Source: Candidatus Aenigmatarchaeota archaeon (GTDB lineage: Archaea; Aenigmatarchaeota; Aenigmatarchaeia; CG10238-14; SCSR01). Taken from it: DNA of 64,000 bases. Position numbers and translations under genes: made by a program. This document shows, one piece after another, positions 19,580 through 41,630 of the stretch; within the stretch, counting starts at the first letter, position 1; every line of letters starts with the position of its first letter. The notes below the pieces were generated by a model. It was not told the origin of the DNA. It did no database searches and worked only from the letters and a program-made list of their open reading frames with translations. The stretch lies in assembly GCA_039090665.1 (NCBI GenBank), contig JAWCSL010000002.1:12052-76051 (forward strand), read 5' to 3'.

Positions 19580-19613
19580 AAAGCTTTTATTTTCTCTTTT
19601 TTTAATTAATATT

Positions 19614-20093: not shown

Positions 20094-20097
20094 TTCC

Positions 20098-20688
20098 ATG
20101 CAAAAAGCACAATCTGACATACTTTCAGCAGTTATAATAATTCTTATTGCCCTTGGTCTAACTTCTGCTGCACTCATGTGGGGCTTACCACTAATCCAAA
20201 AGAGGCAAGACGCTGCAATGGTAGCAAGAGTAAGTAATCTTTTTTCTCATGATTTGCCATCCAAAATAACACATGTAGCCAATGTTGGTGGTCATGATAG
20301 TTTTACTATAGATGCTAATGGTGTTTGGACTTTAGATGAAACTAAAAACATACTTTCATTCACATTTTTCAGTAAATCTTCTGATAAAGCTATTGGAATG
20401 TGGATAGGTGGTGGAGAATGTCAACCAGATGGATTTAACGGACAGCCTGGAATTTTGGGTATTGATGAGCCTTGTGTGGTTTGTGTTCGGGCCGATCAAC
20501 TAGAATCAGGCTATACCATAACTTATCAAATTGGTTGTAGAGAACTTAAGACAGAAACAAACTCTTACAAAATACAGTTTAAGTCAGCAGGAGTAACAAC
20601 ATCCAACTCAAAGACGATAAAAATTTCTAGGGGGGCTTTGGTAACTATGGATAATTTAATTATAACACAAATCGAAATTCTTTTATGA
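20098..20688 (+). CDS. type IV pilin-like protein (class III signal peptide)
   Basis: MQKAQSDILSAVIIILIALGLTSAA: short basic n-region, K-A-Q, then a hydrophobic stretch. Confidence 0.6.
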   Translation: MQKAQSDILSAVIIILIALGLTSAALMWGLPLIQKRQDAAMVARVSNLFSHDLPSKITHVANVGGHDSFTIDANGVWTLDETKNILSFTFFSKSSDKAIGMWIGGGECQPDGFNGQPGILGIDEPCVVCVRADQLESGYTITYQIGCRELKTETNSYKIQFKSAGVTTSNSKTIKISRGALVTMDNLIITQIEILL

Positions 20689-21110
20689 TGAACAAAGGTC
20701 AGAGTATAGTAATTCAGTTCTTGATATTTTTTCTAATAGGTTTTTCAATTTTCGTTTCCTTGGGTTCATTTTTCAACTATCAGTCTGAAATTTTTAGGCA
20801 AAACATATTATCTTCTGGAGTCAACTTGAGTAAAAGTTACATTTCTTCAGCTGTCATAGCTATGGTAGATTCTTGCAAAGAGTGTGATTTTGTAAAGTTA
20901 ACGATAAAAATACATAACACTTCTGCAGGCTATCCAATATTGGTTAGAGGAGAGAATTTGGCTCTAATAGTTTCTACCCCAGTTAGTTCAGTTTCAACCA
21001 CTATTCATAACCTATTGGGTGATGTTTTAAAAGTTACCGGTAGCTCACCATCCACCAAACCTATAGTTTTAACATTTAACAGAACAAATAATAATTTAGA
21101 GGTAAGGTGA
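20685..21110 (+). CDS. pilin-like protein
   Basis: MMNKGQSIVIQFLIFFLIGFSIF (KGQS-hydrophobic). Confidence 0.55.
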   Translation: MMNKGQSIVIQFLIFFLIGFSIFVSLGSFFNYQSEIFRQNILSSGVNLSKSYISSAVIAMVDSCKECDFVKLTIKIHNTSAGYPILVRGENLALIVSTPVSSVSTTIHNLLGDVLKVTGSSPSTKPIVLTFNRTNNNLEVR

Positions 21111-22949
21111 ATGAATCCATTAAAAAATTTTATTAGGGCTCTTGTAGAAGGATATAGAAATCTTTCAATCGAAGAAAGTACACAAAAATCAATTGTTCTT
21201 GATCAACCTCAAATCCAGCCACTCAAAATTCCGGTAGAAGCAGTTCAAAAAATTGTGGTGGAATCTCCTGAACAACCGATCAAAATTCCTATCCAACCTG
21301 TCATCCAACCCATAGTTGTCCCGATAAAAACTGAAGAAGAAAAAGAAGAAAAAGAATTGGTAAAGGAGACAGAAGGTATAGAAATACCAAAATTTTCGCC
21401 AGCACTAGTTAAAACAGGTGAAATAGAAGAAGAGGAAAGAGAAAAAATAACTTTAATTCAACCACTCATACCTAAAAAACCTCAGAAGGATGAACCGATT
21501 CTTGCCTATGCGAAAATTTATTGGGATGAAAAGGAAAACAGGCAAGTGTATCAAGTAGTCGAACCGCCTTTAACCAACAAGCTAAAAGAAATTCTGAGGA
21601 AAGTGAAGGAAATCATGGAGCAGAAACTTGATGTAGAATTTTCAAGACTGAAAGTTTTGGAAGCAAAAGAATATTTGAGAAAACAGATTTCGGATATAGT
21701 CGGATATTTTGGTTTCAAGCTTTCTGAAACTGAAAAGCAGATATTGCAGTACTATATAGAAAGAGATTTCATGGGTTTGGGTAAAATTGAGCCCTTGATG
21801 AATGATGATCAAATAGAAGATATAAGTTGTGATGGAGTTAAAATTCCTGTTTTTGTTTTTCACAGAAATCCAGCTTTAGGATCTTTGATAACAAATGTTG
21901 TTTTCGAAAACGAGGAAGAACTTGATTCTTTTGTGATGAGATTGGCTCAGTTGTGTGGAAAATCAATTTCAATTACAAATCCTTTGCTTTCAGGCTCTCT
22001 TCCAGATGGAAGTAGAGTTCAAGCAACTTTAGCAACAGACATAGCAAGAAGAGGTAGCAACTTCACTATTAGAAAATTCACAGAAAAACCTTTGACACCC
22101 GTTCATCTCCTAGGCTATAAAACAGTTGATATAAAAACTTTAGCATATTTGTGGTTTGTTGTTGATATGGGAAAAAGTGTTTTGGTTTCTGGAGGAACTG
22201 CTTCAGGAAAAACAAGCATGTTGAATGTGCTTTCACTTTTCATAAGACCGGAACAAAAGATAGTTTCAATAGAAGACACACCAGAACTCAAATTACCTCA
22301 TCCACACTGGGTTCCACATGTGGCTAGAACAGCAATTGGAACCGAATTTGGAAGAAAGCCAGGTGAAATAGATCTTTTTGATCTTTTGAAAGAAAGTTTG
22401 AGACAAAGACCAGATTATATAATAGTTGGTGAAGTTAGAGGAAAAGAAGCTTATGTACTTTTCCAAGAAATGGCCACAGGACATCCAAGCCTGGCTACAA
22501 TTCATGCAGAAAATATATCAAAGTTACTCGATAGATTAACCACACCACCCATAAGCTTGCCACCCAGCCTTATTGCAAGCGTTGATGTGATAGTTTTTAT
22601 GGTTTTAACAAGATATAGGAACAAACAAGTTAGAAGAGTTACCGAAATTTTAGAAGTTGTTGGTATAGACGAAAAAACAAAGACACCTATTTTCAACAAA
22701 CTTTTCAAATGGAATCCAGTTTCAGATAGTTTTGATGTTTGTGGTAAAAGCTTTTTGTTGAAAAAAATCTCGGAGAGTACTGGATTGAGTGAGAAAGAAA
22801 TCAAAGAAGAGTTGGAAAGAAGGATGCTAGTTTTGGATTGGCTACAAACAAACAATATTTTGGAATATGAAGATTTCTGTCAAATCATAAACTCTTATTA
22901 TAAGAATCCTTCCAGGCTTTTAGCTGCCATCAAGGGAGGACTTGGATGA
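21111..22949 (+). CDS. FlaI/TadA/GspE-family secretion ATPase with a Pro/Ile/Gln-rich N-terminal extension
   Basis: Walker A VSGGTASGKTSMLNV, Asp/His boxes and the GEVRG motif; residues about 30-140 are IPV/QP repeats. Confidence 0.85.
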   Translation: MNPLKNFIRALVEGYRNLSIEESTQKSIVLDQPQIQPLKIPVEAVQKIVVESPEQPIKIPIQPVIQPIVVPIKTEEEKEEKELVKETEGIEIPKFSPALVKTGEIEEEEREKITLIQPLIPKKPQKDEPILAYAKIYWDEKENRQVYQVVEPPLTNKLKEILRKVKEIMEQKLDVEFSRLKVLEAKEYLRKQISDIVGYFGFKLSETEKQILQYYIERDFMGLGKIEPLMNDDQIEDISCDGVKIPVFVFHRNPALGSLITNVVFENEEELDSFVMRLAQLCGKSISITNPLLSGSLPDGSRVQATLATDIARRGSNFTIRKFTEKPLTPVHLLGYKTVDIKTLAYLWFVVDMGKSVLVSGGTASGKTSMLNVLSLFIRPEQKIVSIEDTPELKLPHPHWVPHVARTAIGTEFGRKPGEIDLFDLLKESLRQRPDYIIVGEVRGKEAYVLFQEMATGHPSLATIHAENISKLLDRLTTPPISLPPSLIASVDVIVFMVLTRYRNKQVRRVTEILEVVGIDEKTKTPIFNKLFKWNPVSDSFDVCGKSFLLKKISESTGLSEKEIKEELERRMLVLDWLQTNNILEYEDFCQIINSYYKNPSRLLAAIKGGLG

Positions 22950-23815
22950 AATTTGGTAAGCTCTCTATGAGATTTTTTTATCCACTTACTGATATGATTT
23001 TACCTTATTTTTCAGAGTTAAAATCTGATTTAAAGAGGGCTGGTATAAAACTTTCAGTTCAAGAGTTCTTAAGCCAAGGAATCTTTTTAACGGTTTTAGT
23101 TTTCATTTTAGGATTACCAATTTTTTCAGTGATTTTTTCTTTTTTTCTTAAGAGTTTTTTATTCGGGTTTTTATCTTCAATTACAGCTTGCTTCTTCATT
23201 TTATCAATTTTCTTTATCGCTTATGTGAATTATCCCAAAATATTGATTGGCCAAAAGACAAAAAAGATTGATGATCAAATTTCTTTTGCTGCGCTTCATC
23301 TTTCCACTCTTGCAAGTGCAAAATTATCTCTAGATAAAATTTTGGAAATTTTTTCTGAATTTAGTGGCTATGGTGAAATTACAGAAGAAATTTCAAAGAT
23401 ACGAACAGATATGAAAATGTTTGGTCTTGATGTCAACACTGCACTTGAAAGAGCTGTGGAGAGATGTCCTTCAAAAAATTTAAAAGAAATTTTATGGGGA
23501 ATTCTTTCCACAAACCTAAGTGGTGGAGAGATTGATGTTTATCTTAGAGAAAAAGCCAGAAGTTTAATGTCAGAATACAGGATGAAGCTTCGTGATTTTT
23601 CTCACCAGCTTGGAATTTATTTGGAAATATACATAACGGCAGTAATCCTTGGAGCGGTTTTCTTCCTCATTTTAACTTCGATAGTTGCAGGTATAGCTGG
23701 AACAGGCGGACAAATACTTTTCCTTCAGTTCTTCCTGATCTTTATATTTTTACCAGCAATTTCTGCAATTTTCATTTATTTGATTAGAGTTGCAACCCCA
23801 GGGGGATTTAGTTGA
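22946..23815 (+). CDS. FlaJ/TadC-like pilus platform membrane protein (1 of 2)
   Basis: Polytopic, with a cytoplasmic helical domain between TM segments; 4-nt overlaps with neighbours. Confidence 0.65.
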   Translation: MKFGKLSMRFFYPLTDMILPYFSELKSDLKRAGIKLSVQEFLSQGIFLTVLVFILGLPIFSVIFSFFLKSFLFGFLSSITACFFILSIFFIAYVNYPKILIGQKTKKIDDQISFAALHLSTLASAKLSLDKILEIFSEFSGYGEITEEISKIRTDMKMFGLDVNTALERAVERCPSKNLKEILWGILSTNLSGGEIDVYLREKARSLMSEYRMKLRDFSHQLGIYLEIYITAVILGAVFFLILTSIVAGIAGTGGQILFLQFFLIFIFLPAISAIFIYLIRVATPGGFS

Positions 23816-24753
23816 AGTTCAAGCTTAGTATAGAACAGAGAATTGTTTTGATAGCAATTTCAATAACAGGTTTTTTGATACTGTTGGGAATTTTAAGTCC
23901 GGACGAAAAAACAAGGATAGGTGTGATTTCAAACGCTTTCATTCTCCTAGCTTTTATGCTAATTCTTCCCTTTGTTTTCATAAGATATCAAAGAGAAAAG
24001 GCTATAAGGGAAATGGAAGAAAAAATGCCACTTTTTTTGAGGGATTTGGTTGAGTCTATTAGTTCTGGAGTACCTTTTCACCAAGCAATAGTCATGAGTA
24101 GCAAACTAGATTATGGTGAGCTTTCAAGAGAAATAAAGAAAATGGCAAATCAAATCTCTTGGGGGATGCCTGTGAATAAAGTTTTAGATCAATTCATAGA
24201 AAGAGTTAAATCAAGCAAAAAACTTTTTATGGCTTTAAAAATTTTGAGAGAATCTTACTTGACAGGAGGTGAAATAATTTCCACTTTAAATTCAGTAGCA
24301 GACAATTTAACACAACTGAATGAAATTGAAAAAGAAAGGAAAAGTATATTGAATCAGTATGTGGTATTGATTTATGCCATAGTTTTTGTTTTTGTGGCAA
24401 TTCTCGTGGCAATCAATAAACTCATGTTACCAATATTTCAAGCAACACAAGCTCCAGGTGGCGAGATTTTAGGATTCAAGAGTCCTTGTGAAGACAATCC
24501 AACTTTCGTTTGTGTTGTTTTTTCTCTTCCAGCTCAATATATTTTTGGTGTTGCTAATCCCACTAGTATAGGAGGCTATTACATTTCAATATTTTTTTAC
24601 ATGAGTACAATAATTGCAATAGCTTGTGGTATGGTTATAGGGGAAATAACAGAAAGGTCAATTTTTTCAGGACTTAAACACAGCTTAATTTTAACGATAG
24701 CTGTTTGGGGAGTCTTGCTATTACTAAAAGTCTTGAATTTCATTGGTGTTTGA
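23812..24753 (+). CDS. FlaJ/TadC-like pilus platform membrane protein (2 of 2)
   Basis: Same architecture as the previous gene; a paired arrangement like EpdJ/EpdK. Confidence 0.65.
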   Translation: MKFKLSIEQRIVLIAISITGFLILLGILSPDEKTRIGVISNAFILLAFMLILPFVFIRYQREKAIREMEEKMPLFLRDLVESISSGVPFHQAIVMSSKLDYGELSREIKKMANQISWGMPVNKVLDQFIERVKSSKKLFMALKILRESYLTGGEIISTLNSVADNLTQLNEIEKERKSILNQYVVLIYAIVFVFVAILVAINKLMLPIFQATQAPGGEILGFKSPCEDNPTFVCVVFSLPAQYIFGVANPTSIGGYYISIFFYMSTIIAIACGMVIGEITERSIFSGLKHSLILTIAVWGVLLLLKVLNFIGV

Positions 24754-25266
24754 ATGAAAGCTCAAATCAGTTTCGTTGAGTTTTTAACTTCAATAACAAT
24801 TTTTCTTGGTTTTACTGTATATATCGCTTTCCAAATTTCAACATTCATACCAAATTATCTCAATGAAATTAAAGCAGAAAGAATGAGATGTGAAGCTTTT
24901 CAACTTTCAGAATTATTGATAAATGATCCCGGAGATCCGGTAAATTGGTATCTCACTAATTTTAACAATGTAAAAAGATTGGGTCTTTTGGATGAAACGA
25001 AAAACAGAACAAACTTTCTATCTGAAAATAAAATTTTGGCGTTTGAAGGAAATTGTTCTAAAAACTATCAAGAAGTTAAGAGAAAATTGGAGTTAGACTA
25101 TGATTTTTCCTTAATTCTAAAAGATGGAAAATCCGGAGAAATTAAGATTAATTGTTATCCAAGTGCTACAATCAAAAGATACACGAACACAACTATAAGG
25201 AGAATAGTTGCTTATGAAAAAAATGGTGAAATAAGTTATGGCGAAATGTTATTGCAAGTTTGGTAA
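24754..25266 (+). CDS. pilin-like protein
   Basis: MKAQISFVEFLTSITIFLGFTVYIAF. Confidence 0.6.
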   Translation: MKAQISFVEFLTSITIFLGFTVYIAFQISTFIPNYLNEIKAERMRCEAFQLSELLINDPGDPVNWYLTNFNNVKRLGLLDETKNRTNFLSENKILAFEGNCSKNYQEVKRKLELDYDFSLILKDGKSGEIKINCYPSATIKRYTNTTIRRIVAYEKNGEISYGEMLLQVW

Positions 25267-26542
25267 AAAATCTCAAATTAACATTGTAGAATTAGTATTC
25301 GCGCTAGTAGCTTTATTCATAGCTTTCGGTGTTTTATTTCCAAGCTTTGGTTATAAAAACAGATGGAAAGAGGCAAACATGATTTTAATTTCTAGAGATT
25401 TGATTTTGACTATGGATAGAATAGGGGAGTTGTACAATTATTCTTTTGACAAGAAAAAACTAGAAAATTTCTTAAATACAATAATTACTGAAAAAAACTT
25501 GATTCCTTGGTCTGAAGTTGAAGGCACGAGCCCAAATGTTTTTGTTATAGCTTGTAATTGCACAGAAGAGGAAATTAATAAAATGAATTATTGGTTCAAT
25601 CCCTTAACTTTAAATGGAAGAAGAATTTATTTGTTGTTTCAGAAATCGAATTTTGAAGAAATTCCAACTGAAGCTGATGTCCTTTTGATTAAAGGTTATA
25701 AAAATCTCACAGGATTTTCTCAAAAATTCAAAAGTTATATAGCAAGAGGAATAGGAATTGTTGAGATTATGGATTTCAATACTCCAGAAAAAGTAAACCA
25801 AGATGATACACAAACAAACATATTTGGATTATGGTGTACTGGAATTGAGACTGGACCTGCAGACTACATGATTTTTTCCAAACCAACTAGTGTAAAAAAT
25901 TTAACATATTTTCCCTTCAAATACTTTTACCATGTTCCTATCATCTTGAATGCCTCATCTTCTGAAGCTATAACTGGTTGCGGCTATCAGCCATCCGGAA
26001 AAGGTGTTTTTAATTTAGGAGGAAAAAACTATAATTTTTGGATTTGTGATGATAATTCTGTTTGGTTTGACATTGATGCGGATGGTACGAGAGATACATT
26101 AGTCAATTTGAGACAAAACTTTAAAATAAATGGGTTCAACTTCACTTTGAATTATATTAATGACAATGCTACAATATCAATTTCGTTCAAACCCGAGTAC
26201 ATCTTCCCAGATTATCTTTCTTATGAAGAAAATGGAAACAAATACCTTCCGAAAATTTTGCCAATAGAAAGATCACTAGTTAGAGCAATAAAAGGTAGCG
26301 AAGAATTTCCAGCAGTAATTTTGAATTCTCCAAAAGTTGCTTGGATGTATGATATTGGAGATAACCCTACAGACGAAGAAAAAACTCTTTTGCTTTCTCT
26401 CTTGCTCTGGGCTTCTAGAAAAAAGTCTAGCATCCTAACATCAACAATAAAAACAGGTTTTTCAACTTCTTATGTAAATGTTCAAAATATTGATATGTTT
26501 GAAGTTTATAAATTCAGTTTAGGTTTGGCTCATCCCTATTGA
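25238..26542 (+). CDS. large pilin-like / pilus-associated secreted protein (434 aa)
   Basis: GKKSQINIVELVFALVALFIAFG at the N-terminus, then a beta-rich extracellular domain with many sequons. Confidence 0.5.
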   Translation: MAKCYCKFGKKSQINIVELVFALVALFIAFGVLFPSFGYKNRWKEANMILISRDLILTMDRIGELYNYSFDKKKLENFLNTIITEKNLIPWSEVEGTSPNVFVIACNCTEEEINKMNYWFNPLTLNGRRIYLLFQKSNFEEIPTEADVLLIKGYKNLTGFSQKFKSYIARGIGIVEIMDFNTPEKVNQDDTQTNIFGLWCTGIETGPADYMIFSKPTSVKNLTYFPFKYFYHVPIILNASSSEAITGCGYQPSGKGVFNLGGKNYNFWICDDNSVWFDIDADGTRDTLVNLRQNFKINGFNFTLNYINDNATISISFKPEYIFPDYLSYEENGNKYLPKILPIERSLVRAIKGSEEFPAVILNSPKVAWMYDIGDNPTDEEKTLLLSLLLWASRKKSSILTSTIKTGFSTSYVNVQNIDMFEVYKFSLGLAHPY

Positions 26543-29165: not shown

Positions 29166-32100
29166 ATGAAAAAATGGCTTGTCTTTATATTTTTAACATT
29201 ATTTTTGCTACCTTCTGTAGGTTTTGCAGTTGATTGTGATTATGATTGTAGACATCGTGGTGGAATAGGAGAATGTACAGGTTGGGCATATTCTTCCTGT
29301 TCATCAGGTTATATAGAAGGAAAGGGAAGTTGTAAGGGTTGGTGGGTTTTTACACCAAAATGCTGTTGTCGACCTGTGATTACCGTATCACATTCACCGA
29401 CTCAAGTAACTAATAAAGATAAAGTTACATATACTGCTAAACTCTTGGTTAGTATGCCCATAACACAATTATCAATTATAGTAAAAAGTGACGCTGGAAG
29501 CAGTATGAATTCTTGCACGTCTTCCGAGTGCTCTTTAACAGCCGGGCCATATAAGGCAGGCACTACTGTTATTTACCAAGCTATTGTAAATCCTGTAATG
29601 GGAGGTTCAATCTTTACAGAGGAAAAATCTTTCACAGTAGGGGCAACGAAAGAATGTGATCGTAATAAGTGGAGTGAATGTGTTGTAGACTGTAAAAACA
29701 AATGTGGGATTTTAAAAGGAACAGAGAGAAATGAATGTGGTGAAGAAAGAGGATGTAGTAAAGACTGTGGAAGCTGCCCATCTGGTTATGAATGTAGAAA
29801 TAATAGATGTGAAAAGATTGGGGAAGAGGCTCCTATAACCACATGTGCTAGAAGCAATCCTAGTATTAGCGTTAACCCTTCCTCTTATACAGCAACTGCA
29901 GGTACTGAAAAAGAATACGAAGTGACAGTTAAAAATAATAATCAGAATTGTAAGGATAGTGTTTTTATCCTTGAAGCTTCTTGTCCACCAGGCTGGGATT
30001 GTTCTTGGTCTCCATCTTCACTTACAATATCTTCTGGATCGTCTGCAAAATCCACACTAAAGGTTAGATCTTCTGCAAAAGAATCCCCAGGATTATTTAG
30101 AATAAAAATTGTTGTTTCAGACAAAGAGTCATCTGTTTATAGAGCATCAACTTATGTAGACTATATGGTTTTTTCAGGACAACAACCTTCCTTAGGAAGA
30201 GAAGAAGGAGAAGCCCTCTCAGTGACTACCACAATCCCATCTTGCCCAATCTGTTCCCAACCATCTCAACTCCCCTGTCAATGTGGTAATAGTAGAGTTG
30301 ACTGTGCTTACGGCTATTGTTATTGTTCTGCCAAAGGCCAGGTTCATTACTCTATACAGGATTGTGAAAAGGCTAGCAATTATCTAACCCTCTCTTTAAG
30401 CCCGAGCAAATCAACTTATGCTCCAAATGAAGAAATAACAGTCAACGTTGAGGGTTATGCTTTTAACCAAATAGGTGGAATTTACATTTATGATGTTCAA
30501 GGATCTTCTACTTCGACAACCTATTGTGGAGAATTTCAAGCAGCAAATAGGCCGGTAAAATGTAGCCAAAAAATAAGCTTCCCTTCAGAAGCATCTAGGA
30601 TTTGTGTGAAGGCAAAGATGCATGTTTACTACTACAACTATGATGTATACTCGAATGAAGTTTGCTTCCAAGTCAAAACCCCCACCCCAGATACTACCCC
30701 ACCTTCTACCTATATCTCACCCAATGGCAATTCATGGACAAATAAAGATATTAGCTTCACTTTAAGTTGTAGCGACTCTAATTCAGGTTGCTCCGAAACA
30801 AGATATTCTATCATCGATTCAACTGACAATTGTCCTTACTATGAGAACTTAGCTAATAAAGGAATGCAAGGCACAATTGCTTGTCCATCATCTCAAGTTT
30901 GTAAAAAAGTAGTTTGTTATGCAAGCAAAGACAATGCGGGCAACATTGAAGTAATAAGAAGAAGCAATATTTTCTACATAGACAAAATACCGCCCACAAT
31001 TGACATAAAAATTTCAGAATCTTTACCAACAATCAATACTAGAGTTGCTTTCATTGCTACAGGAAGCGATGCAGATTCTGGAGTAGATTACATAGAAATA
31101 TTTGTAGATGATATTTCACGCTATAAATGTGCTTCTACTTCGTGTACTTATTTGGGTGAGCCTTATCCAGTGGGAACTCACACATATTTTGGGGCAATTA
31201 AAGATAAAGCAGGGAATTATGTTCAAACGTCTAAAAAGACTTTTACAGTTATGCAATCACCTCCTTGTACAGGCTCAATTTCCCTGAAATTATCACCAAA
31301 TCCTGCTCAAACAAGCTCAAAAGTGACAGCCACAGTCTCAGGATTAGTTTACTGTGATAATAGAGAAGTTAAAATTATTAAACCCGATAGAACAACACTT
31401 ACTTGTAAAGTTTCAGGTTCAGGTTGTTCAGTAAGTTTTGACGCTCCTAGCACTGAAGGAGAATATGTTTATTATGCTGGAGTTGATATTAACGGAGATA
31501 TGGATACTTCGGATGAAGGTGAGACTTCCTCTGCAGTTTTGAAGGTAAGTAAGCCAACTCAAATCCCATCTTGCCCAATCTGTTCCCAACCATCTCAACT
31601 CCCCTGTCAATGTGGTAATAGTAGAGTTGACTGTGCTTACGGCTATTGTTATTGTTCTGCCAAAGGCCAGGTTCATTACTCTATACAGGATTGTGAAAAG
31701 GCTAGCAATTATCTAACCCTCTCTTTAAGCCCGAGCAAATCAACTTATGCTCCAAATGAAGAAATAACAGTCAACGTTGAGGGTTATGCTTTTAACCAAA
31801 TAGGTGGAATTTACATTTATGATGTTCAAGGATCTTCTACTTCGACAACCTATTGTGGAGAATTTCAAGCAGCAAATAGGCCGGTAAAATGTAGCCAAAA
31901 AATAAGCTTCCCTTCAGAAGCATCTAGGATTTGTGTGAAGGCAAAGATGCATGTTTACTACTACAACTATGATGTATACTCGAATGAAGTTTGCTTCCAA
32001 GTCAAAACCCCCACCCCAGATACTACTCTTATTCAAACATCTCTTTCCCAATCAGTTTATCCGCCAAGCCCCCAACCCCAAGGCACCACAGTAATTTTTC

Positions 32101-32594
32101 TGTGTGACTATACTGCCAACAACCAAGATGTTACAGGGGCAACTTGTTATGTGAACATAGATGGAAAATCCTATTCAACAACTTATGGACAATATGTAAG
32201 TGGTGGCTATTATGCTTATGGTTATTCCACATCTTCCCTTTCAGCAGGCACTCACTCTTGGTATTGCAGCTGCTCTAAATCAGGCTACCAAAGCCAAGTA
32301 GGAAGCACACAAAGTTACACAATTACCTCAGTCTCTACAACCACCACAACCTCACCGCCTTACACACCTTGTCCTTCAGGCTATAGCTGCGTTCCAAGCT
32401 ACGGTGTTTCAAACTTTTGTCAAGGTTGTGGGTATAGTGGAATGAGGTGTGATTGTCAAGGTCAAACAAGAGCTTGCAATCAAAACGGTGACAACTACTG
32501 TTGCAGATGTGTCAGATATAGTTCTCAACCTGTGCCAGCCGGAATTTTAAGCAGCTTGTGGGACTTCATCAAAAGCATCTTTGGTATACAATAG
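29166..32594 (+). CDS. giant secreted cysteine-rich surface protein (1142 aa) with an internal tandem duplication
   Basis: Signal peptide MKKWLVFIFLTLFLLPSVGFA; many Cys clusters (CGSCPSGYECRNNRCEK, C-terminal CPSGYSCVP...CDCQGQTRAC); Thr-rich linkers. Confidence 0.75.
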   Translation: MKKWLVFIFLTLFLLPSVGFAVDCDYDCRHRGGIGECTGWAYSSCSSGYIEGKGSCKGWWVFTPKCCCRPVITVSHSPTQVTNKDKVTYTAKLLVSMPITQLSIIVKSDAGSSMNSCTSSECSLTAGPYKAGTTVIYQAIVNPVMGGSIFTEEKSFTVGATKECDRNKWSECVVDCKNKCGILKGTERNECGEERGCSKDCGSCPSGYECRNNRCEKIGEEAPITTCARSNPSISVNPSSYTATAGTEKEYEVTVKNNNQNCKDSVFILEASCPPGWDCSWSPSSLTISSGSSAKSTLKVRSSAKESPGLFRIKIVVSDKESSVYRASTYVDYMVFSGQQPSLGREEGEALSVTTTIPSCPICSQPSQLPCQCGNSRVDCAYGYCYCSAKGQVHYSIQDCEKASNYLTLSLSPSKSTYAPNEEITVNVEGYAFNQIGGIYIYDVQGSSTSTTYCGEFQAANRPVKCSQKISFPSEASRICVKAKMHVYYYNYDVYSNEVCFQVKTPTPDTTPPSTYISPNGNSWTNKDISFTLSCSDSNSGCSETRYSIIDSTDNCPYYENLANKGMQGTIACPSSQVCKKVVCYASKDNAGNIEVIRRSNIFYIDKIPPTIDIKISESLPTINTRVAFIATGSDADSGVDYIEIFVDDISRYKCASTSCTYLGEPYPVGTHTYFGAIKDKAGNYVQTSKKTFTVMQSPPCTGSISLKLSPNPAQTSSKVTATVSGLVYCDNREVKIIKPDRTTLTCKVSGSGCSVSFDAPSTEGEYVYYAGVDINGDMDTSDEGETSSAVLKVSKPTQIPSCPICSQPSQLPCQCGNSRVDCAYGYCYCSAKGQVHYSIQDCEKASNYLTLSLSPSKSTYAPNEEITVNVEGYAFNQIGGIYIYDVQGSSTSTTYCGEFQAANRPVKCSQKISFPSEASRICVKAKMHVYYYNYDVYSNEVCFQVKTPTPDTTLIQTSLSQSVYPPSPQPQGTTVIFLCDYTANNQDVTGATCYVNIDGKSYSTTYGQYVSGGYYAYGYSTSSLSAGTHSWYCSCSKSGYQSQVGSTQSYTITSVSTTTTTSPPYTPCPSGYSCVPSYGVSNFCQGCGYSGMRCDCQGQTRACNQNGDNYCCRCVRYSSQPVPAGILSSLWDFIKSIFGIQ
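30233..30697 (+). repeat. direct repeat copy 1 (465 bp, 100% identical to 31562..32026)
   Basis: Base-by-base comparison of the two segments; offset 1329 nt (443 codons, in frame). Confidence 0.95.
31562..32026 (+). repeat. direct repeat copy 2 (465 bp)
   Basis: Identical to 30233..30697. Confidence 0.95.
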
Positions 32595-32627: not shown

Positions 32628-33066
32628 ATGGTCAAAGATCAAAAATCTCCCATTATTCTATTAATTCTGTTATTCTCATTTCTCGCTATAACATTTCTTT
32701 AAAAAACCAGAAATCTCTACAAAAGAAACAAGCACAACAACTTTACCACAATGCAGATTTGATGAAGAAACACAAAAATGTGTAGGGTCTTGCGGTGAAG
32801 GCTTTGAGTGCAGAATTTCACCTCTGGCAGTTCTCCCACCTGTCTGTGAGTGCTTCCCAACTACTACCACAACAACACATGCTGAATTGCCTGCAAGCAA
32901 ATACAGCGGAACTAATTCTCGCGTTTGTAGCTATGGTTTCAAGTATGATTGTTTGATCTCCAAGTGTTGCTATTGGGATTCAAATCTCTCCAAATGCAAA
33001 CCTAGACCTCGCTCAGATATAGAAACAAATTATTGCATAAGCTGTGGTTGTATTTTATCTCAATAA
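32628..33066 (+). pseudogene. small secreted Cys-rich protein, frameshifted after the signal peptide; paralog of the C-terminal region of the giant protein
   Basis: MVKDQKSPIILLILLFSFLAITFL stops at 32700 (cttTAAaaaaacc); the +1 frame continues KKPEISTKETSTTTLPQCRFDEETQKCVGSCGEGFECR...TTTTTT...CCYWDSNLSKCKP to the stop at 33066. Confidence 0.45.
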
Positions 33067-36804: not shown

Positions 36805-39151
36805 ACTTAAGAACTGGCGTTCACATTTGGAATCCAAATTTGATTTTTCTCCAGGCACAAACATATTACTAGGAAGCATAGGCTCTGGAAAATCTTCTGT
36901 TCTTGATGCTATTTGTTTTGCCTTTTTTGGGACTTTCCCTACTCTTCAATCGAAAAAGATAAAGTTAGATGATGTTATCATGAAAAAGCCAGTAGAAAAA
37001 AATAGAGCAGAAGTTGAAGTCCATTTCCAATCAAATGGAAAGAATTATGTGGTCAAAAGAATTATAGAAAAGGGTAAAGGCACAACTTATTCTGAGATAA
37101 GAGAAGAAGGAAAATTACTTGAAGCTCCAAATACACAAAGGGTTACAGAAAAAGTGGAAGAAATTTTAAAAATTGATTATGAACTTTTCAGTAAAGCGAT
37201 TTATTCTGAGCAAAATGCTTTAGATTATTTCTTGACAATACCAAAAGGTCAAAGAATGAAAAAAATAGACGAACTTCTAGCCATAGATAGATTTGAAAAA
37301 GCTAGGGCAGCAGCAGTAACTTTAATCAATAGAATTGCTGATAGAAAATTTGGATTAGAAAGTATAATAACACAGATTGATGAAGAGGAACTAAGAAAAA
37401 GCATTTTTGAGTTGGAAAATATGATAAAAAAGCTTATTTTAGAAAAAGAAAGTTTGAAAAAAGATTTAGAAAAAATAAGTGAAGAAAGGGCAAATCTTGA
37501 GAAAGAGCTACGAGAATTAAAGAAAATGAAAGAAACATTGGAAAATTTGAAGAGAGAAGAAAGAGGAAAGGAAACGGTTCTAGAAGAGACTTCGAGAGCA
37601 ATAAAATCAATTGAAGATGCAGTAAAAGGATTTTCAAAAGAGGAAATTCAAAAAACTCTTAAAGAGCTAGAAGAATTTGAAAAAAGGCTGGATGAAGAAA
37701 AAAAGCAAAAGAAAGAAGCTTATGAAAAGCAATTTTCCGAAATTTCTCAAGCTAATAGCAAGAAATTTTTCTATGAAGAAAAAATCTCAGAACTCAGACC
37801 AAGGCTTGCTGAAAAAATCGAACTAAAGAAAAAAATTGATCAATTGCTAAGCATGACAGGAGAAAATATAGAAGAACAATTAGAAAAAACAAAAACAGAA
37901 ATAGATAAAATAAACTTTGAAATTTCTTCCACAACTACAATGATAAATGATTTGAATTCTTTCATCCAACATCTTTCATCTCCAATTAACAAATGTCCTG
38001 TTTGTGATTCAACATTGACTCAAGAAAGGAAGGATTTTTTGATAAAACAAAAACAAGATCAGTTGAAGAAACTGGAAGATAAGCTTGAAAATCTAATGGT
38101 TAGCAAGCAAAATATGGGTGAAACTTTGAAAAGGCTTGAAGATTCTGCTAAGAAAATAAGCGAGATGCATATCCAAACAAAAGATATACCAGAGATTCAA
38201 AGAGAGCTTGAAAATTTGGAAAATAATTTAGTTCAAATCATTTCTTTCTTATCTCAAAATGAGAAAATCTTAGAGAATTTTAAAAGCGATCTGGAACAAA
38301 TAGATAAGCAGATAAAAGAAAATGAAAACAAGAAGAAAAAGTATGAAATACTATTGATACAACTTGAAGATTTAGAAGAAAAGAAGAAAAGAAGTGAAGT
38401 GTTAAAGAAGGAAATAGAAGAAATCAGGTTAAGGATGAAAGAAATAGAAGTAAAACTTGAGGGCAAGGATTTAACAAGAATTGAAGAATTTCTCAAGTCA
38501 ATTATAAGTAAAGAAAGTGAGATAAAGACAAGGATTGAGTCTTATGATTCTTTTATTCAAGAAAAAGAGTTGAGGAAAAAAGAATTTGAAGAAAAACTGA
38601 AAAATTTGGAAAAACAGAAGAAAGAAATCAAAAGATTAGAGAAGCTTATAAGAGACCTAGAAATTTTCACTCTTGCTCTTCAACAAACACAAATTGAGCT
38701 GAGGAGCAATTTCGTGGAAGCGGTAAATTATACTATGGATAAGCTTTGGGGAACTCTTTATCCGTATCATGACTTTATTTCCGTTAGATTGAATGCAGAA
38801 GAAGGAGACTATGTTTTACAATTGCAAGGAAGAGACGGAAATTGGATGAATGTTGAAGGCATAGCTTCTGGTGGTGAAAGAAGCATAGCTTGTCTTGCTT
38901 TGAGAATAGCTTTTGCTCTTGTGCTTGCGCCAACCATGAGAATGATCTTTCTAGATGAACCAAGTCACAATTTGGATCAAGTTTCGTTAAAAGTTTTTGC
39001 TACAACTTTGAAAGAAAAAATAAACGAATTTATTGATCAAGTTTTCTTGATAACACATCAGTCTGAACTAGAAGATGCATTGACAGGCAACGGTTATTTG
39101 CTGGAAAGAGATAAAGAAAAGGATGGTGTGACAAGGGTAGTTGCTTTATAA
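36788..39151 (+). CDS. rad50: DNA repair ATPase Rad50
   Basis: Walker A GSIGSGKSS, long coiled coil with a CPVCDS zinc hook, signature SGGE, Walker B FLDEPSHNLD. Confidence 0.85.
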   Translation: MITKVELKNWRSHLESKFDFSPGTNILLGSIGSGKSSVLDAICFAFFGTFPTLQSKKIKLDDVIMKKPVEKNRAEVEVHFQSNGKNYVVKRIIEKGKGTTYSEIREEGKLLEAPNTQRVTEKVEEILKIDYELFSKAIYSEQNALDYFLTIPKGQRMKKIDELLAIDRFEKARAAAVTLINRIADRKFGLESIITQIDEEELRKSIFELENMIKKLILEKESLKKDLEKISEERANLEKELRELKKMKETLENLKREERGKETVLEETSRAIKSIEDAVKGFSKEEIQKTLKELEEFEKRLDEEKKQKKEAYEKQFSEISQANSKKFFYEEKISELRPRLAEKIELKKKIDQLLSMTGENIEEQLEKTKTEIDKINFEISSTTTMINDLNSFIQHLSSPINKCPVCDSTLTQERKDFLIKQKQDQLKKLEDKLENLMVSKQNMGETLKRLEDSAKKISEMHIQTKDIPEIQRELENLENNLVQIISFLSQNEKILENFKSDLEQIDKQIKENENKKKKYEILLIQLEDLEEKKKRSEVLKKEIEEIRLRMKEIEVKLEGKDLTRIEEFLKSIISKESEIKTRIESYDSFIQEKELRKKEFEEKLKNLEKQKKEIKRLEKLIRDLEIFTLALQQTQIELRSNFVEAVNYTMDKLWGTLYPYHDFISVRLNAEEGDYVLQLQGRDGNWMNVEGIASGGERSIACLALRIAFALVLAPTMRMIFLDEPSHNLDQVSLKVFATTLKEKINEFIDQVFLITHQSELEDALTGNGYLLERDKEKDGVTRVVAL

Positions 39152-39152
39152 C

Positions 39153-39851
39153 TCATCTGAACAATTTTTCTGTTGGATAAACAATTATTCCTTTGCCAGA
39201 CTTTATTTCAAATGGATGCGAGTCTGTGTCATGGTCTGTTGCTCTCATTTTTCTTATTGTTATTCCTCGAGGAGAGCCTGAAGAGTAAGATAACAATATT
39301 ATGCCATCTGAAGTGAACTCCTCTATTCCGAAAGATGAAATAGAATTAGAACCTTCTGGAATTTCGCAAGTGAGTAAAGCAGTGCAATTCAATTTCTTGA
39401 GTAGTTTATCTAACTCAAGCAAACTCCTTCTAATCTCTAATGGTCTTTCGAAGAAAAGGCTTATAACTGTTATGGGATCAATAACTACCCTTTCTGCACC
39501 TATTTTTTCAACACTGTTTTCTATCAAATTCTTGAATTTTTCAAAATCATAAATATCTGATTTAACAAAAAGCAGCTTTCCCTCTTTTTCCAATTTTTCC
39601 AAAGGCCAACCAAAAGTTAAGTTCATATACTTTTTTATTCTATCGACACTTTCTTCTAAAGATATGTACACGCCTTTTTCATTTTTTTCCAAAGCACCAT
39701 TCACCAAGAACTGTAAAGATAATATTGTCTTACCAGATCCAGGGGTACCTGAAACAAGAACAGTAGAGCCTTTTGGAAAACCTCCTTTGAGCAAGATATC
39801 CAAACCTTTTATACCTGAAGAAGTTCTTTCTATACCGTCAACTTCTTTCAT
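39153..39851 (-). CDS. KaiC/RadA-like RecA-superfamily ATPase (possibly FlaH/ArlH-like)
   Basis: Walker A SGTPGSGKTILSLQF and a Walker-B-like VVIDPIT; 232 aa, single domain. Confidence 0.6.
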   Translation of the reverse strand: MKEVDGIERTSSGIKGLDILLKGGFPKGSTVLVSGTPGSGKTILSLQFLVNGALEKNEKGVYISLEESVDRIKKYMNLTFGWPLEKLEKEGKLLFVKSDIYDFEKFKNLIENSVEKIGAERVVIDPITVISLFFERPLEIRRSLLELDKLLKKLNCTALLTCEIPEGSNSISSFGIEEFTSDGIILLSYSSGSPRGITIRKMRATDHDTDSHPFEIKSGKGIIVYPTEKLFR

Positions 39852-39886
39852 AATTTAATTTATTCCCCTAAGGTATAAGAATTAAT

Positions 39887-40474
39887 ATGGAGAAGTCGAT
39901 AGAGACCATAAAAGGTGAGAAAAATCTTAAAAAATTTGTCAAAAAACTTGAACCAAAAACTGTGGTTTTGTTCATCATTGATGCAAAAAAATATCATAAG
40001 ATACACCCAAAGCTCCTCCAAACTATAATAAAAGAAAAGTGTTTTGCTGGAATTTACATAACAATAAACAAACCTTACAGTACTTTGATAAAATACCTTA
40101 AAGAAAATAAAATAAACACAGACAATATTTTCTTTATTGATGCTATATCAAAGAGTGTTGGTGGAGAAATGAAGATGACAAAAGACTGTTTATTTATTCC
40201 ATCTCCTTCTCAACTAACTGATTTGGCAATAGCTCTAACACAAGCTCTAGAAAGTATGGAACATAAGGAAAACAAATTTATTTTTTTAGATTCTCTTTCA
40301 ACTTTGTTGATTTATAACTCTTTTGAAGTTGCGGCCAAGTTTGTTCATTTCGTAATCTCTAGGCTTAGATTGTTTGGGCTTGTTGGAATGATAATCTCAA
40401 TAGAAAAGCAAATAGACGAGAGAATGTTAAATATTTTAATAGAGATGTGTGATAAGGTGGTGGAAGTTAAATGA
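39887..40474 (+). CDS. degenerate KaiC/RecA-fold protein lacking a P-loop
   Basis: Retains the RecA-family FLDSLSTLL (Walker-B-like) but has no GxxxxGK[ST]; 195 aa; 4-nt overlap with the next gene. Confidence 0.4.
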   Translation: MEKSIETIKGEKNLKKFVKKLEPKTVVLFIIDAKKYHKIHPKLLQTIIKEKCFAGIYITINKPYSTLIKYLKENKINTDNIFFIDAISKSVGGEMKMTKDCLFIPSPSQLTDLAIALTQALESMEHKENKFIFLDSLSTLLIYNSFEVAAKFVHFVISRLRLFGLVGMIISIEKQIDERMLNILIEMCDKVVEVK

Positions 40475-40821
40475 TTGAAATCTTCTTTCAGATCTTGAGC
40501 TTGCTCAACTCCATTTTAGCTTTCATAACAGTCATTATTTTTGCTCGTTCTAACATTAAATTCACGAAGGGTGAGCTACAAGAAATAATCAATTATTTTG
40601 TTTGGGGAACAATATTCATGTTTGGTGGAATGATAGCTCAACTTGAAGTCGAGTTTTTAAATTTAGCTGGCACACCGATAGACATGATAAAATATTTCCT
40701 GTTTTTAGGAGGTTTCTCATACTACTTGCTTGCTTCCTTTAAGATTCATAAGATGTCAAAAGTTTTAGGCTTCGCTTCAGGAGAAATGCCTAAGAAACTT
40801 AAAAAAATCCTTAAATCTTAA
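40471..40821 (+). CDS. small membrane protein (3 TM, 116 aa)
   Basis: Hydrophobic segments only. Confidence 0.45.
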   Translation: MIEIFFQILSLLNSILAFITVIIFARSNIKFTKGELQEIINYFVWGTIFMFGGMIAQLEVEFLNLAGTPIDMIKYFLFLGGFSYYLLASFKIHKMSKVLGFASGEMPKKLKKILKS

Positions 40822-40846
40822 TTTCAAGGAACAGTTAATTTAGATT

Positions 40847-41257
40847 ATGAAAGCTCAAGTTGCACTTGAATATTTGATGATAATTTCTTTTGCTTTAATG
40901 GTTTTGTTACCTTATGCTCTTCATCTTCAAACAGTTTCTCAAAATTTGAGAGAAGATAACAATTTAGCTATAGCTTCAAATTCTCTACAAAAAATAGGTC
41001 AGGCAGCAGATTGGGTATTTTCTCAAGGCGAACCTGCAAAAATTACAATTTTAGTCCAAATTCCTGCTAATGTTGAAGAGATTTCTTTTGCCGGAAAAAT
41101 GATGAAATGGAAAGTTAGAACTAGTGCTGGTTTATCAGAAATTTACTACATTTCTTCAGCCAACTTGACGGGAAGTTTGCCTACCACTCCAGGCTACTAT
41201 AATTTATTGATTCAAGCTATGGGGAATGGGGTGAAAATAAGTGTCAGCCCAAGTTAG
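40847..41257 (+). CDS. pilin-like protein (class III signal peptide)
   Basis: MKAQVALEYLMIISFALMVLL. Confidence 0.6.
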   Translation: MKAQVALEYLMIISFALMVLLPYALHLQTVSQNLREDNNLAIASNSLQKIGQAADWVFSQGEPAKITILVQIPANVEEISFAGKMMKWKVRTSAGLSEIYYISSANLTGSLPTTPGYYNLLIQAMGNGVKISVSPS

Positions 41258-41630
41258 CCTAGAATTCATTTCTTTACTTTCACTTCTTTTCATCTTTTTA
41301 TTTCTCACAATCTATCACAGCTCCAATCTTTATATTCAAACAAACAGAGCAAAAGTATTAAAAGAAGCTCAAACAATAAGCGATCAAATTGCTTCTGAAA
41401 TAAACTTGGCTCTTAAAGCAGGGAGTGGCTATTCAAGAATTTTCACTATCCCCCAAAAAATTTCTAATGCAATAGATTACAACATAACAGTAAAGGATTA
41501 TCTTGTGATTTTGAGTTGGAATAATGGTTTTGTCCAATCCACAATTTTGACAAGAAACATAAGTGGCGAAATCTTGAAAGGTGAGAACTTGATAAGAAAT
41601 TTAAATGGTGTAGTTTATGTTAACCAATAA
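41241..41630 (+). CDS. pilin-like protein
   Basis: MSAQVSLEFISLLSLLFIFLFL. Confidence 0.55.
   Translation: MSAQVSLEFISLLSLLFIFLFLTIYHSSNLYIQTNRAKVLKEAQTISDQIASEINLALKAGSGYSRIFTIPQKISNAIDYNITVKDYLVILSWNNGFVQSTILTRNISGEILKGENLIRNLNGVVYVNQ

What the first reader, a model, noticed from the sequence alone, without database searches (positions are those of the whole stretch)
29166..32594. Giant secreted Cys-rich protein containing a perfect 465-bp in-frame direct repeat
Segments 30233..30697 and 31562..32026 are identical base-for-base, offset by 1329 nt (443 codons). Each encodes IPSCPICSQPSQLPCQCGNSRVDCAYGYCYC...VCFQVKTPTPDTT. Perfect identity in an AT-rich genome implies a very recent duplication or ongoing gene conversion. 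It also creates a substrate for recombinational deletion or expansion, giving possible size or phase variation of a surface protein. The flanks of the two copies have diverged (TTTIPSCP versus PTQIPSCP), so the unit is embedded in otherwise non-identical sequence. The alternative is an assembly artefact.
Basis: seen in the sequence. Interest (0 to 1): 0.6.

Follow-up and report, generated by a model that had tools for sequence, protein, structure and literature searches.

The report
Duplicated module in archaeal surface protein
A large, cysteine-rich secreted protein of an uncultivated DPANN archaeon (Candidatus Aenigmatarchaeota) carries two base-for-base identical copies of one 155-residue module; this is most likely a recent internal duplication in a fast-evolving, probably host-contact surface protein, which is an interesting but familiar kind of gene.

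Summary
Window 30233-30697 and 31562-32026 are identical over exactly 465 bp, 1329 nt (443 codons) apart, with unrelated flanks, inside one 1142-aa ORF (29166-32594).

The ORF has a signal peptide, 74 Cys and a chain of Ig-like beta-sandwich modules. It is identical to NCBI MEM7822036.1 from a Ca. Aenigmatarchaeota MAG.

The repeat is exactly one module, cut in the inter-domain linkers. It consists of a Cys-rich head plus an Ig-like sandwich. Its only detectable relative is a single copy in the positional ortholog of a distant relative.

More than 20 contigs from other assemblies of the same population all stop inside this gene. Three stop exactly k-1 or k bases into the repeat (k=31 and k=141). 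So the repeat's 5' edge is a real graph junction in other assemblies too, not a quirk of this one.

The gene is hypervariable. Its middle is replaced in an 87%-identical sister genome. Mismatches between near-identical strains are 55-fold enriched in it. Five other assemblies show a tandem array of its C-terminal Cys-knot module where the window has one copy.

Best reading: a real, recent module duplication in a modular surface protein. In-frame size variation is plausible; on/off phase variation is not. The interior path rests on one assembly, so copy number is unverified.

The parts
29166..32594 (+). ORF of 1142 aa: a secreted, Cys-rich, modular surface protein. It is identical to NCBI MEM7822036.1 ('NEW3 domain-containing protein', Ca. 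Aenigmatarchaeota MAG, 100,808-bp contig).
29166..29228 (+). Signal peptide (aa 1-21, MKKWLVFIFLTLFLLPSVGFA). It holds the only strongly hydrophobic segment of the protein.
   Evidence: Sequence inspection and hydropathy scan; AF2 helix at aa 2-13.
29166..30209 (+). Conserved N-terminal part 'A' (aa 1-348): Cys-rich head, Big_7-like Ig domain, Cys-rich spacer and NEW3/NPCBM_assoc domain (aa 243-318). It is colinear with the sister-genome ortholog at about 87% nucleotide and 88% amino-acid identity.
30210..31265 (+). Block present in the window lineage but absent from the sister-genome ortholog. The sister joins ...GGEG directly to CTGSISL... The block comprises a linker, repeat copy 1, an OmpL47-type domain and a Big_7 domain.
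30233..30697 (+). Repeat copy 1 (R1, aa 357-511). It has a Cys-rich head (8 Cys, about 50 aa, not modelled) and an Ig-like beta-sandwich (about 100 aa, 4 Cys). It is probably the derived copy.
30698..31561 (+). Unique 864-bp spacer 'B' (aa 512-799). It holds an OmpL47/chitobiase-C-type domain (about aa 509-610, pLDDT above 90), a Big_7 Ig domain (about aa 609-700) and the 'CTGSISL' Ig-like module (about aa 701-798, starting at nt 31266).
31562..32026 (+). Repeat copy 2 (R2, aa 800-954). It sits after the CTGSISL module, as the single copy does in the distant positional ortholog P0003, so this is probably the ancestral position.
32027..32336 (+). Module with no detectable homologs (aa 955-1057; low-confidence beta structure), ending in a poly-Thr linker.
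32337..32513 (+). C-terminal Cys-knot module (one copy in the window). In five other assemblies it is preceded by further near-identical copies with a 192-nt (64-aa) period, and those contigs end inside that array.
32538..32591 (+). Conserved C-terminal amphipathic tail PAGILSSLWDFIKSIFGIQ. It is shared by family members P0001, P0003, P0010 and P0013. It is not a transmembrane segment and matches no known sorting-signal model.

Best explanation
The repeat is a real, evolutionarily recent duplication of one complete protein module inside a modular, fast-evolving, secreted surface protein of a Ca. Aenigmatarchaeota (DPANN) archaeon. The module is a Cys-rich head plus an Ig-like beta-sandwich, bounded by Thr/Pro linkers.

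Copy 2 probably sits at the ancestral position, after the CTGSISL module. Copy 1 was probably copied in between the conserved N-terminal part and an OmpL47-type/Big_7 block, by illegitimate or template-switch recombination at linker sequences.

The resulting R-B-R arrangement behaves like 1.35 copies of a 1329-bp tandem unit. Homologous recombination between the copies would remove or add exactly 443 codons in frame. That would change the length and module content of the protein without switching it off.

Shown: the repeat, its sharp edges and frame, its match to module boundaries, the independent graph junction at its 5' edge, the hypervariability of the gene, and recurrent module duplication in the family.

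Inferred: the surface or host-contact role, the direction of the copying, the mechanism, and that recombinational size variants actually occur at R.
For: 1. The exact 465-bp repeat is in frame and has random-level flanks.

2. The edges fall in inter-domain linkers (SVTTT|IPSCP and TPTPDTT|PPST). The AF2 full-length model places beta-sandwich domains at 407-503 and 850-946, with low-confidence linkers at the edges. The unit folds as an Ig-like sandwich.

3. An exhaustive HMMER search of 1.84 billion representatives finds one true relative of the unit, P0003 (E=9e-35). It has a single copy between poly-Thr linkers. P0003 is the positional ortholog, next to ProRS, radical SAM, Mre11 and Rad50, and is colinear with window aa 627-947.

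4. Other assemblies of the same population (99.9-100% identical) end exactly 30 nt into R (two Logan contigs; k=31 is from my own knowledge) and exactly 141 nt into R (contig named k141_). This is what a convergent de Bruijn junction at nt 30233 predicts. Two of these contigs carry distinguishing SNPs, so the junction appears to be shared by more than one strain.

5. Module duplication recurs in this gene. The sister genome has an older duplicated CTGSISL module with patches of 83-85% nucleotide identity. Five assemblies carry a tandem Cys-knot array whose copies differ by 3 aa.

6. The gene is a diversity hot spot: 21 mismatches in 8.2 kb inside it against 6 in 130 kb outside, a 55-fold excess with p=4e-21. 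Its middle, 30210-32540, is replaced relative to the sister genome.

7. It has a signal peptide and no transmembrane segment. Relatives in other Aenigmarchaeota end in a transmembrane anchor (P0017 and P0019).

8. Nanoarchaeota show elevated non-synonymous SNP density in predicted cell-surface proteins (PMC6142677).
Against: - Only one assembly (the window's source MAG) traverses nt 30633-32336. No other contig shows the R->B, B->R or R->C junction.
- That assembly differs from five others just upstream of 32337: one Cys-knot copy against a tandem array. So its path through this gene may be simplified, and the true number of R-B units could exceed one.
- No read data were available, so the copy number per genome is unverified.
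- The function is inferred from architecture alone. Most modules have no Pfam family and no solved relative.
Confidence: 0.7

Rival explanations
1. Assembly artefact or mis-resolved graph path. The MAG contig threads a tangled de Bruijn graph built from several co-existing alleles of a hypervariable gene. The A-R-B-R-C order, or the number of R copies, then does not exist in any single genome. One example would be a mixture of alleles that carry R in different contexts.
For: - Every other assembly breaks in this gene: more than 20 contigs from NCBI, JGI, ENA and Logan.
- The interior is seen in one assembly only.
- That assembly disagrees with five others at 32337.
- Strain-level SNPs cluster in the gene, so several alleles co-exist.
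Against: - Contigs run through A and k-1 or k bases into R without branching at the end of A. So A is always followed by R, and a second left context joins exactly at 30233.
- B is bounded by R on both sides in the assembled path. If all four junctions are real k-mers, the simplest linear molecule is A-R-B-R-C, possibly with more R-B units.
- All four junctions keep the reading frame and fall in linkers.
- Typical assembler artefacts are inverted or terminal duplications, not an internal direct repeat with an 864-bp unique spacer (own knowledge).
Confidence: 0.15
2. The duplication is old and is kept identical by gene conversion. Two paralogous modules that had diverged were homogenised by intragenic conversion, so perfect identity reflects ongoing concerted evolution rather than a recent copy event.
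For: - The junction at R's 5' edge appears in assemblies that carry different SNPs, so the duplication is not brand new.
- One strain (L015) has two adjacent non-synonymous changes inside R1, which shows that R can change while the window's copies stay identical.
- The sister genome's duplicated CTGSISL modules contain 33-40-nt exact patches within otherwise diverged copies. These look like small conversion tracts.
Against: - Similarity drops to random level within one base of both edges. Conversion between diverged paralogs normally leaves graded or patchy similarity and residual homology in the flanks.
- Other modules duplicated within family members are only about 40-50% identical, too low to start conversion.
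- Zero differences are also expected without conversion if the copy is about as old as the strain radiation. The expected number is roughly 0.04-1.2 differences at the observed rates.
Confidence: 0.12
3. The repeat is the target or template pair of a diversity-generating retroelement, or some other mobile cassette, rather than a plain duplication.
For: DGRs are common in DPANN archaea (own knowledge). The gene is a surface protein with clustered SNPs.
Against: - The copies have no mismatches at all, whereas a template/variable repeat pair differs at adenines.
- The SNP clusters are not adenine-specific.
- No reverse transcriptase is called among the genes within about 10 kb on either side (gene tables).
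- There are no terminal inverted repeats or target-site duplications at R's edges, and the unit is in-frame coding sequence.
Confidence: 0.02

Closest known systems
Alpha C / Rib family surface proteins of group B Streptococcus, and similar repeat adhesins such as Staphylococcus Aap/SasG and Bap (from own knowledge)
   Same: They are secreted modular surface proteins with Ig-like repeat modules that are identical at the nucleotide level. Recombination between repeats gives in-frame size variants, and the genes are hard to assemble.
   Different: Those repeats are head-to-tail tandem arrays of many copies in bacteria with LPXTG anchors. Here there are two copies separated by an 864-bp unique three-domain spacer, in an archaeon, with a different C-terminal tail and no sequence relationship. 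A true tandem array is seen only for the C-terminal Cys-knot module, and only in other assemblies.
Rapidly diversifying predicted cell-surface proteins of Nanoarchaeota (PMC6142677)
   Same: The organism is a DPANN archaeon. A hypothetical exported protein shows much higher (mostly non-synonymous) SNP density than the rest of the genome, and this was interpreted as host recognition or attachment.
   Different: That study reports SNP density. It does not report module duplication or perfect intragenic repeats. The phylum is different, and no homology was tested here.
Leptospira OmpL47 and other proteins with OmpL47-type / chitobiase C-terminal-like beta-barrel domains (NCBIfam NF047441, NF047446)
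   Same: Window aa 505-702 resembles the OmpL47 multi-barrel region (E=4e-8). The same domain occurs at 50-53% identity in many DPANN surface proteins.
   Different: Scores are far below the curated cut-offs (33 against 250 bits, and 22 against 40 bits). Only one or two modules match, and the duplicated unit itself is not this domain.
NEW3 / NPCBM-associated domain proteins (Pfam PF10633), which is the name under which NCBI files this protein
   Same: aa 243-318 pass the Pfam gathering score.
   Different: This is one beta-sandwich module out of about ten. It says nothing about function and does not cover the repeat.

Membership tests
NEW3 / NPCBM_assoc domain-containing protein (PF10633) | Match to the Pfam model above its gathering score of 24.4 bits | tested here: met
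   26.8 bits on the whole protein and 31.3 bits on the excised module, aa 243-318.
OmpL47 (NCBIfam NF047441 equivalog; NF047446 barrel domain) | Score at or above the curated cut-off (250 bits for the equivalog, 40 bits for the domain) | tested here: not met
   33.3 bits and 21.9 bits. This is a domain-level resemblance only.
Big_7 bacterial Ig domain (PF17957) | Score at or above the gathering score of 24.1 bits | tested here: not met
   17.7 bits for aa 606-702. Homologs P0002, P0016 and P0023 carry precomputed PF17957 hits, so the relationship is likely but sub-threshold here.
Reeler domain (PF02014), considered for the repeated unit | Score at or above the gathering score of 21 bits | tested here: not met
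   15.4 bits, E=0.027. Foldseek lists the F-spondin reeler domain only among many generic Ig-like hits.
Tandem identical-repeat adhesins (alpha C/Rib-like behaviour) | Head-to-tail array of nucleotide-identical repeat units | tested here: not met
   The two R copies are 1329 nt apart with an 864-bp unique spacer. A 192-nt tandem array exists only for the Cys-knot module, and only in other assemblies.
Tandem identical-repeat adhesins (alpha C/Rib-like behaviour) | Observed repeat-number (size) polymorphism between isolates | tested here: inconclusive
   There is a copy-number difference at the Cys-knot module between the window and five assemblies, but it could be assembler collapse. No data exist for R itself.
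Diversity-generating retroelement target | Template/variable repeat pair differing at adenines, plus a nearby reverse transcriptase | tested here: not met
   There are 0 mismatches between the copies. The strain SNPs are not adenine-specific. No reverse transcriptase is called in the neighbouring genes.
Archaeosortase-sorted proteins (PGF-CTERM and related) | C-terminal signature motif, then a transmembrane helix, then a basic tail, matched by an NCBIfam CTERM model | tested here: not met
   No CTERM model hit at E<=1. The tail is 17 aa, amphipathic (muH 0.39) and has no hydrophobic 19-aa window.
Aenigmatarchaeota family defined here (conserved signal peptide and N-terminal architecture plus the ...GI(L/F)xxLW(D/N)FIKS(I/L)(F/L)GI(Q/K) tail, at the ProRS-adjacent locus) | Shared C-terminal tail and conserved genomic position | tested here: met
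   The tail is present in P0001, P0003, P0010, P0013 and the window protein. Synteny with ProRS, radical SAM, Mre11 and Rad50 holds in L001 and L021.

The most novel reading that the evidence does not exclude
The identical modules are substrates of frequent, selected recombination. Together with the Cys-knot tandem array and wholesale replacement of the gene's middle, this would make the locus a cassette-shuffling 'contingency' gene. It would vary the length and module content of a host-attachment protein within a DPANN population, an archaeal analogue of antigenic or size variation in bacterial adhesins. The protein would be anchored through a previously undescribed amphipathic C-terminal signal.
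Probability: 0.15. Interest if true: 0.6.

Novelty: new member of a known kind. Interest (0 to 1): 0.35.

Why it matters
DPANN archaea are thought to live attached to host cells, and the proteins that mediate contact are mostly unknown. This locus is a well-marked candidate. It is secreted and Ig-domain rich. It is the single most variable gene in more than 130 kb of compared sequence between near-identical strains. It is rebuilt module by module between close relatives.

There is also a practical point. It is a systematic breakpoint for short-read assemblies of this species, so its true structure and any size variation are invisible in current MAGs and need long reads.

As a phenomenon, identical repeats in a modular surface protein are not new in kind.

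Tried and rejected
- Scans of genome contigs and metagenome contigs with the unit and with the N-terminal part found only the sister MAG.
- I guessed the exact partial proteins that k=31, k=127 and k=141 contigs covering B or C would encode. This is uninformative, because truncated products are mostly not stored.
- The full-length homology search missed the identical 489-aa partial protein that later searches found. That tool's word filter is therefore not exhaustive.
- A DGR, mobile element or intein reading was rejected (see rival explanations).
- A tandem-repeat reading of R was rejected: TRF finds nothing.
- The promoter and terminator scan gave nothing above the shuffled expectation.
- Hits P0004-P0008 from the exhaustive search are unrelated repetitive Ig/cadherin-like proteins that match only a low-complexity strand region.
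- A fragment-based MSA for AF2 was partly mis-registered. The full-length model is used only as a domain map.
- Two literature searches for Cys-rich DPANN surface proteins returned nothing relevant.
Full report
OBSERVATION

Window 30233-30697 and 31562-32026 are identical base for base. The maximal exact run is exactly 465 nt, and the offset is 1329 nt, which is 443 codons. At the same offset, identity in 50-nt blocks falls to 14-40% immediately outside both edges. The repeat therefore has sharp edges and unrelated flanks. It is the only repeat longer than 50 nt in the 64-kb window, and Tandem Repeats Finder reports nothing there.

Both copies lie in one ORF, 29166-32594 (+), of 1142 aa with 74 Cys. 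At protein level the identical stretch is aa 357-511 and 800-954. The N-terminus is a typical Sec signal peptide and holds the only strongly hydrophobic segment.

SOURCE AND CONTEXT

The protein is identical to NCBI MEM7822036.1, 'MAG: NEW3 domain-containing protein [Candidatus Aenigmatarchaeota archaeon]', on a 100,808-bp contig. Aenigmatarchaeota belong to the DPANN archaea.

The neighbouring genes are housekeeping genes:
- aCPSF1-type beta-CASP nuclease and proteasome beta subunit upstream
- ProRS, a radical SAM protein, Mre11 and Rad50 downstream
- a type IV pilus-like cluster (T2SSE and T2SSF genes plus small genes without a Pfam hit, possibly pilin-like) further upstream

No reverse transcriptase, transposase or integrase is called within about 10 kb on either side.

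WHAT THE PROTEIN IS

Pfam recognises only a NEW3/NPCBM_assoc domain at aa 243-318, above threshold. NCBIfam gives sub-threshold similarity of aa 505-702 to Leptospira OmpL47 barrel domains. No solved structure is related by sequence.

I combined BLAST against family members with an AF2 model used only as a domain map (mean pLDDT 57.5). The architecture is:

- aa 1-21: signal peptide
- to about aa 70: Cys-rich head
- aa 72-157: Big_7-like sandwich
- aa 160-222: Cys-rich spacer
- aa 233-334: NEW3 sandwich
- linker
- aa 357-511: R1
- aa 514-606: OmpL47-type domain (pLDDT above 90)
- aa 611-696: Big_7 (pLDDT about 90)
- aa 706-794: 'CTGSISL' Ig-like module
- aa 800-954: R2
- about aa 955-1057: module with no detectable homologs
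- about aa 1058-1116: Cys-knot
- aa 1125-1142: amphipathic helix

More distant Aenigmarchaeota relatives with the same OmpL47-type modules end in a classical transmembrane anchor (P0017 and P0019). This supports a cell-surface location.

THE REPEATED UNIT

Folded alone, the unit gives an unmodelled Cys-rich first 50 residues (8 Cys) and a beta-sandwich over residues about 51-150 with pLDDT about 70-89. Foldseek against the PDB returns generic Ig-like folds such as antibody V domains, NPC2, LAIR-1 and the reeler domain. Pfam gives only a sub-threshold Reeler hit.

An exhaustive HMMER search of 1.84 billion representative proteins found one genuine relative, P0003 (E=9e-35). It contains the unit once, between poly-Thr linkers. 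P0003 lies at the same locus in a more distant genome, followed by ProRS, radical SAM, Mre11 and Rad50. It has the same C-terminal tail and is colinear with window aa 627-947, in the order Big_7, CTGSISL module, R.

So R is a real, rare domain. The repeat's edges are the module's edges. R2 occupies the position seen in the distant ortholog, and R1 is probably the newer copy.

IS THE DUPLICATION REAL OR AN ASSEMBLY PRODUCT?

Reads were not available. Other assemblies of the same population were; some may have been made from the same read sets.

Exact-protein look-ups of the two flanking genes returned 13 contigs on the ProRS side and 11 on the proteasome side. They come from four other NCBI MAGs, JGI, ENA and Logan, and those retrieved are 99.9-100% identical to the window. 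Every one of those retrieved ends inside this gene, and none crosses it.

On the 5' side:
- Two Logan contigs end at 30262, exactly 30 nt into R.
- An ENA contig named k141_ ends at 30373, exactly 141 nt into R.
- Two MAG contigs end 372 and 400 nt into R.

Logan assemblies use k=31, and the MEGAHIT prefix k141 means k=141 (own knowledge). These end points are exactly what a convergent junction at nt 30233 predicts in a de Bruijn graph. A is always followed by R, and a second left context joins R at precisely the nucleotide where B|R2 joins in the window.

Two of these contigs carry their own SNPs, so the junction appears to be shared by distinguishable strains. This argues strongly that R has two contexts in the underlying reads.

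It does not prove that both contexts lie on one molecule, and it does not fix the copy number. The interior, 30633-32336, is seen in a single assembly. My attempts to find contigs from other assemblies carrying B or C failed, for reasons that are uninformative.

A WARNING ABOUT THE 3' END

Five other assemblies (L004-L008) match the window down to 32337 and then continue differently. Instead of ...TITSVSTTTTT they carry one or two further copies of the 64-aa Cys-knot module (period 192 nt), and they end within that array. In L004 and L006 the last copy differs from the previous one by 3 aa, so the array is not an assembler loop.

Either the window's strain has one copy, which would be real length polymorphism, or its assembler collapsed the array. 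Either way the window's gene model is one path through a difficult region.

THE GENE IS HYPERVARIABLE

Against the syntenic sister MAG (L001, about 87% nucleotide identity), colinearity runs through 30209 and resumes at 32541. Inside that span only 31266-31357 and 32333-32390 align. The sister protein shares aa 1-357 (88% identity) and the tail, has a different set of middle modules, and lacks R. The sister joins ...GGEG directly to CTGSISL..., so block 30210-31265 is specific to the window lineage.

Among the near-identical assemblies there are 21 mismatches in 8,227 compared nt inside the gene, against 6 in 130,450 nt outside. That is a 55-fold excess (binomial p=4e-21). The mismatches are clustered at 29848-29873, at 30553/30555 (inside R1 of one MAG) and at 32353-32403, and most are non-synonymous. 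They are not adenine-specific.

Module duplication recurs. The sister gene carries an older duplicated CTGSISL module with 83-85% identical patches. Other family members (P0011 and P0014) contain diverged internal module repeats.

AGE AND MECHANISM

Zero differences in 465 sites bounds the pairwise divergence at 0.64% with 95% confidence. The divergence from the sister genome, which lacks the unit, is 13%. At the in-gene strain-level rate, about one difference would be expected if the copy were as old as the strain radiation. The data therefore fit a duplication of roughly that age or younger, without needing homogenisation.

Gene conversion of an old paralog is disfavoured, because there is no residual similarity beyond the edges. 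The edges show no inverted repeats or target-site duplications. I infer illegitimate or template-switch copying at the linkers, but this is not demonstrated.

CONSEQUENCES

R-B-R is equivalent to 1.35 copies of a 1329-bp unit. Recombination between the copies would delete R+B, leaving a 699-aa protein without the OmpL47-type, Big_7 and CTGSISL modules, or it would add further R-B units. Both outcomes are in frame. Size and composition variation is therefore mechanistically available, and on/off phase variation is not. Whether such variants exist is untested.

COMPARISON AND NOVELTY

Functionally this resembles bacterial repeat adhesins whose nucleotide-identical Ig-like repeats recombine to give size variants, such as alpha C/Rib and Aap/SasG (own knowledge). 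It also resembles the high non-synonymous SNP density reported for predicted surface proteins of Nanoarchaeota (PMC6142677).

It is not a member of any of those families. It fails the curated cut-offs for OmpL47, Big_7 and Reeler. It has no archaeosortase-type signal and no DGR features.

The family itself is uncharacterised: a conserved N-terminal part, a shuffled middle, the ...LWDFIKS..GIQ tail, and a locus next to ProRS. The phenomenon is of a known kind. I rate it a new member of a known kind, with interest about 0.35.

Noticed in passing
window 32337-32513; L004-L008 contig ends: Five other assemblies of the same population carry a tandem array of the C-terminal Cys-knot module where the window has one copy. 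The period is 192 nt (64 aa), with at least 2.3 copies in L004, and the copies differ by 3 aa in L004 and L006. This is either real copy-number polymorphism or a collapsed array in the window's assembly.
   Followed up: partly
window 32538-32591: The 17-18-aa amphipathic C-terminal tail (PAGILSSLWDFIKSIFGIQ) is conserved in family members from several metagenomes (P0001, P0003, P0010, P0013). It is not a transmembrane segment, matches no NCBIfam CTERM sorting model, and occurs nowhere else in the window. It may be a lineage-specific anchoring or docking signal.
   Followed up: partly
window 29848-29873: One Logan assembly (L018) differs from the window at 7 positions within 26 nt (aa 228-236, mostly non-synonymous), while the remaining 7.8 kb shows one difference. 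This looks like a small recombination or conversion tract, or a multi-nucleotide change.
   Followed up: partly
window 32628-33066 (+): The small gene downstream is interrupted by a stop after 24 codons, with the rest readable in another frame (32887-33066). In the sister MAG the same gene is an intact 146-aa secreted, Cys-rich protein with a poly-Thr linker (L001 9054-9494). It is probably a recent pseudogene.
   Followed up: partly
window ~19600-26500 (+) and ~38000-44500: A type IV pilus-like cluster lies upstream, with a T2SSE ATPase, two T2SSF membrane proteins and small genes that have no Pfam hit. Several more ORFs with pilin-like hydrophobic N-termini (seen by eye in the retrieved locus sequence) lie downstream. 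The surface-protein gene therefore sits between pilus-related loci, separated from them by housekeeping genes.
   Followed up: no
window 56275-59157 (-): This is a second large ORF (960 aa) with a signal-peptide-like hydrophobic N-terminus and Thr-rich linkers encoded by imperfect short tandem repeats (56926-57052). It is not Cys-rich and has no Pfam hit above threshold.
   Followed up: partly
window 22395-22442 and 48574-48621: A 48-nt inverted match (77%) links two ORFs on opposite strands: the T2SSE-type ATPase gene in the pilus-like cluster and a second ORF at 48040-49551 (-). It probably marks a conserved motif of a paralogous ATPase rather than a structural repeat.
   Followed up: no
L021 (JGI 3300043541) 1-2247; L001: The contig carrying the ortholog in a third, more distant genome also begins inside this gene. 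The sister genome's ortholog contains an older internal duplication of the CTGSISL module, with 33-40-nt exact patches.
   Followed up: partly
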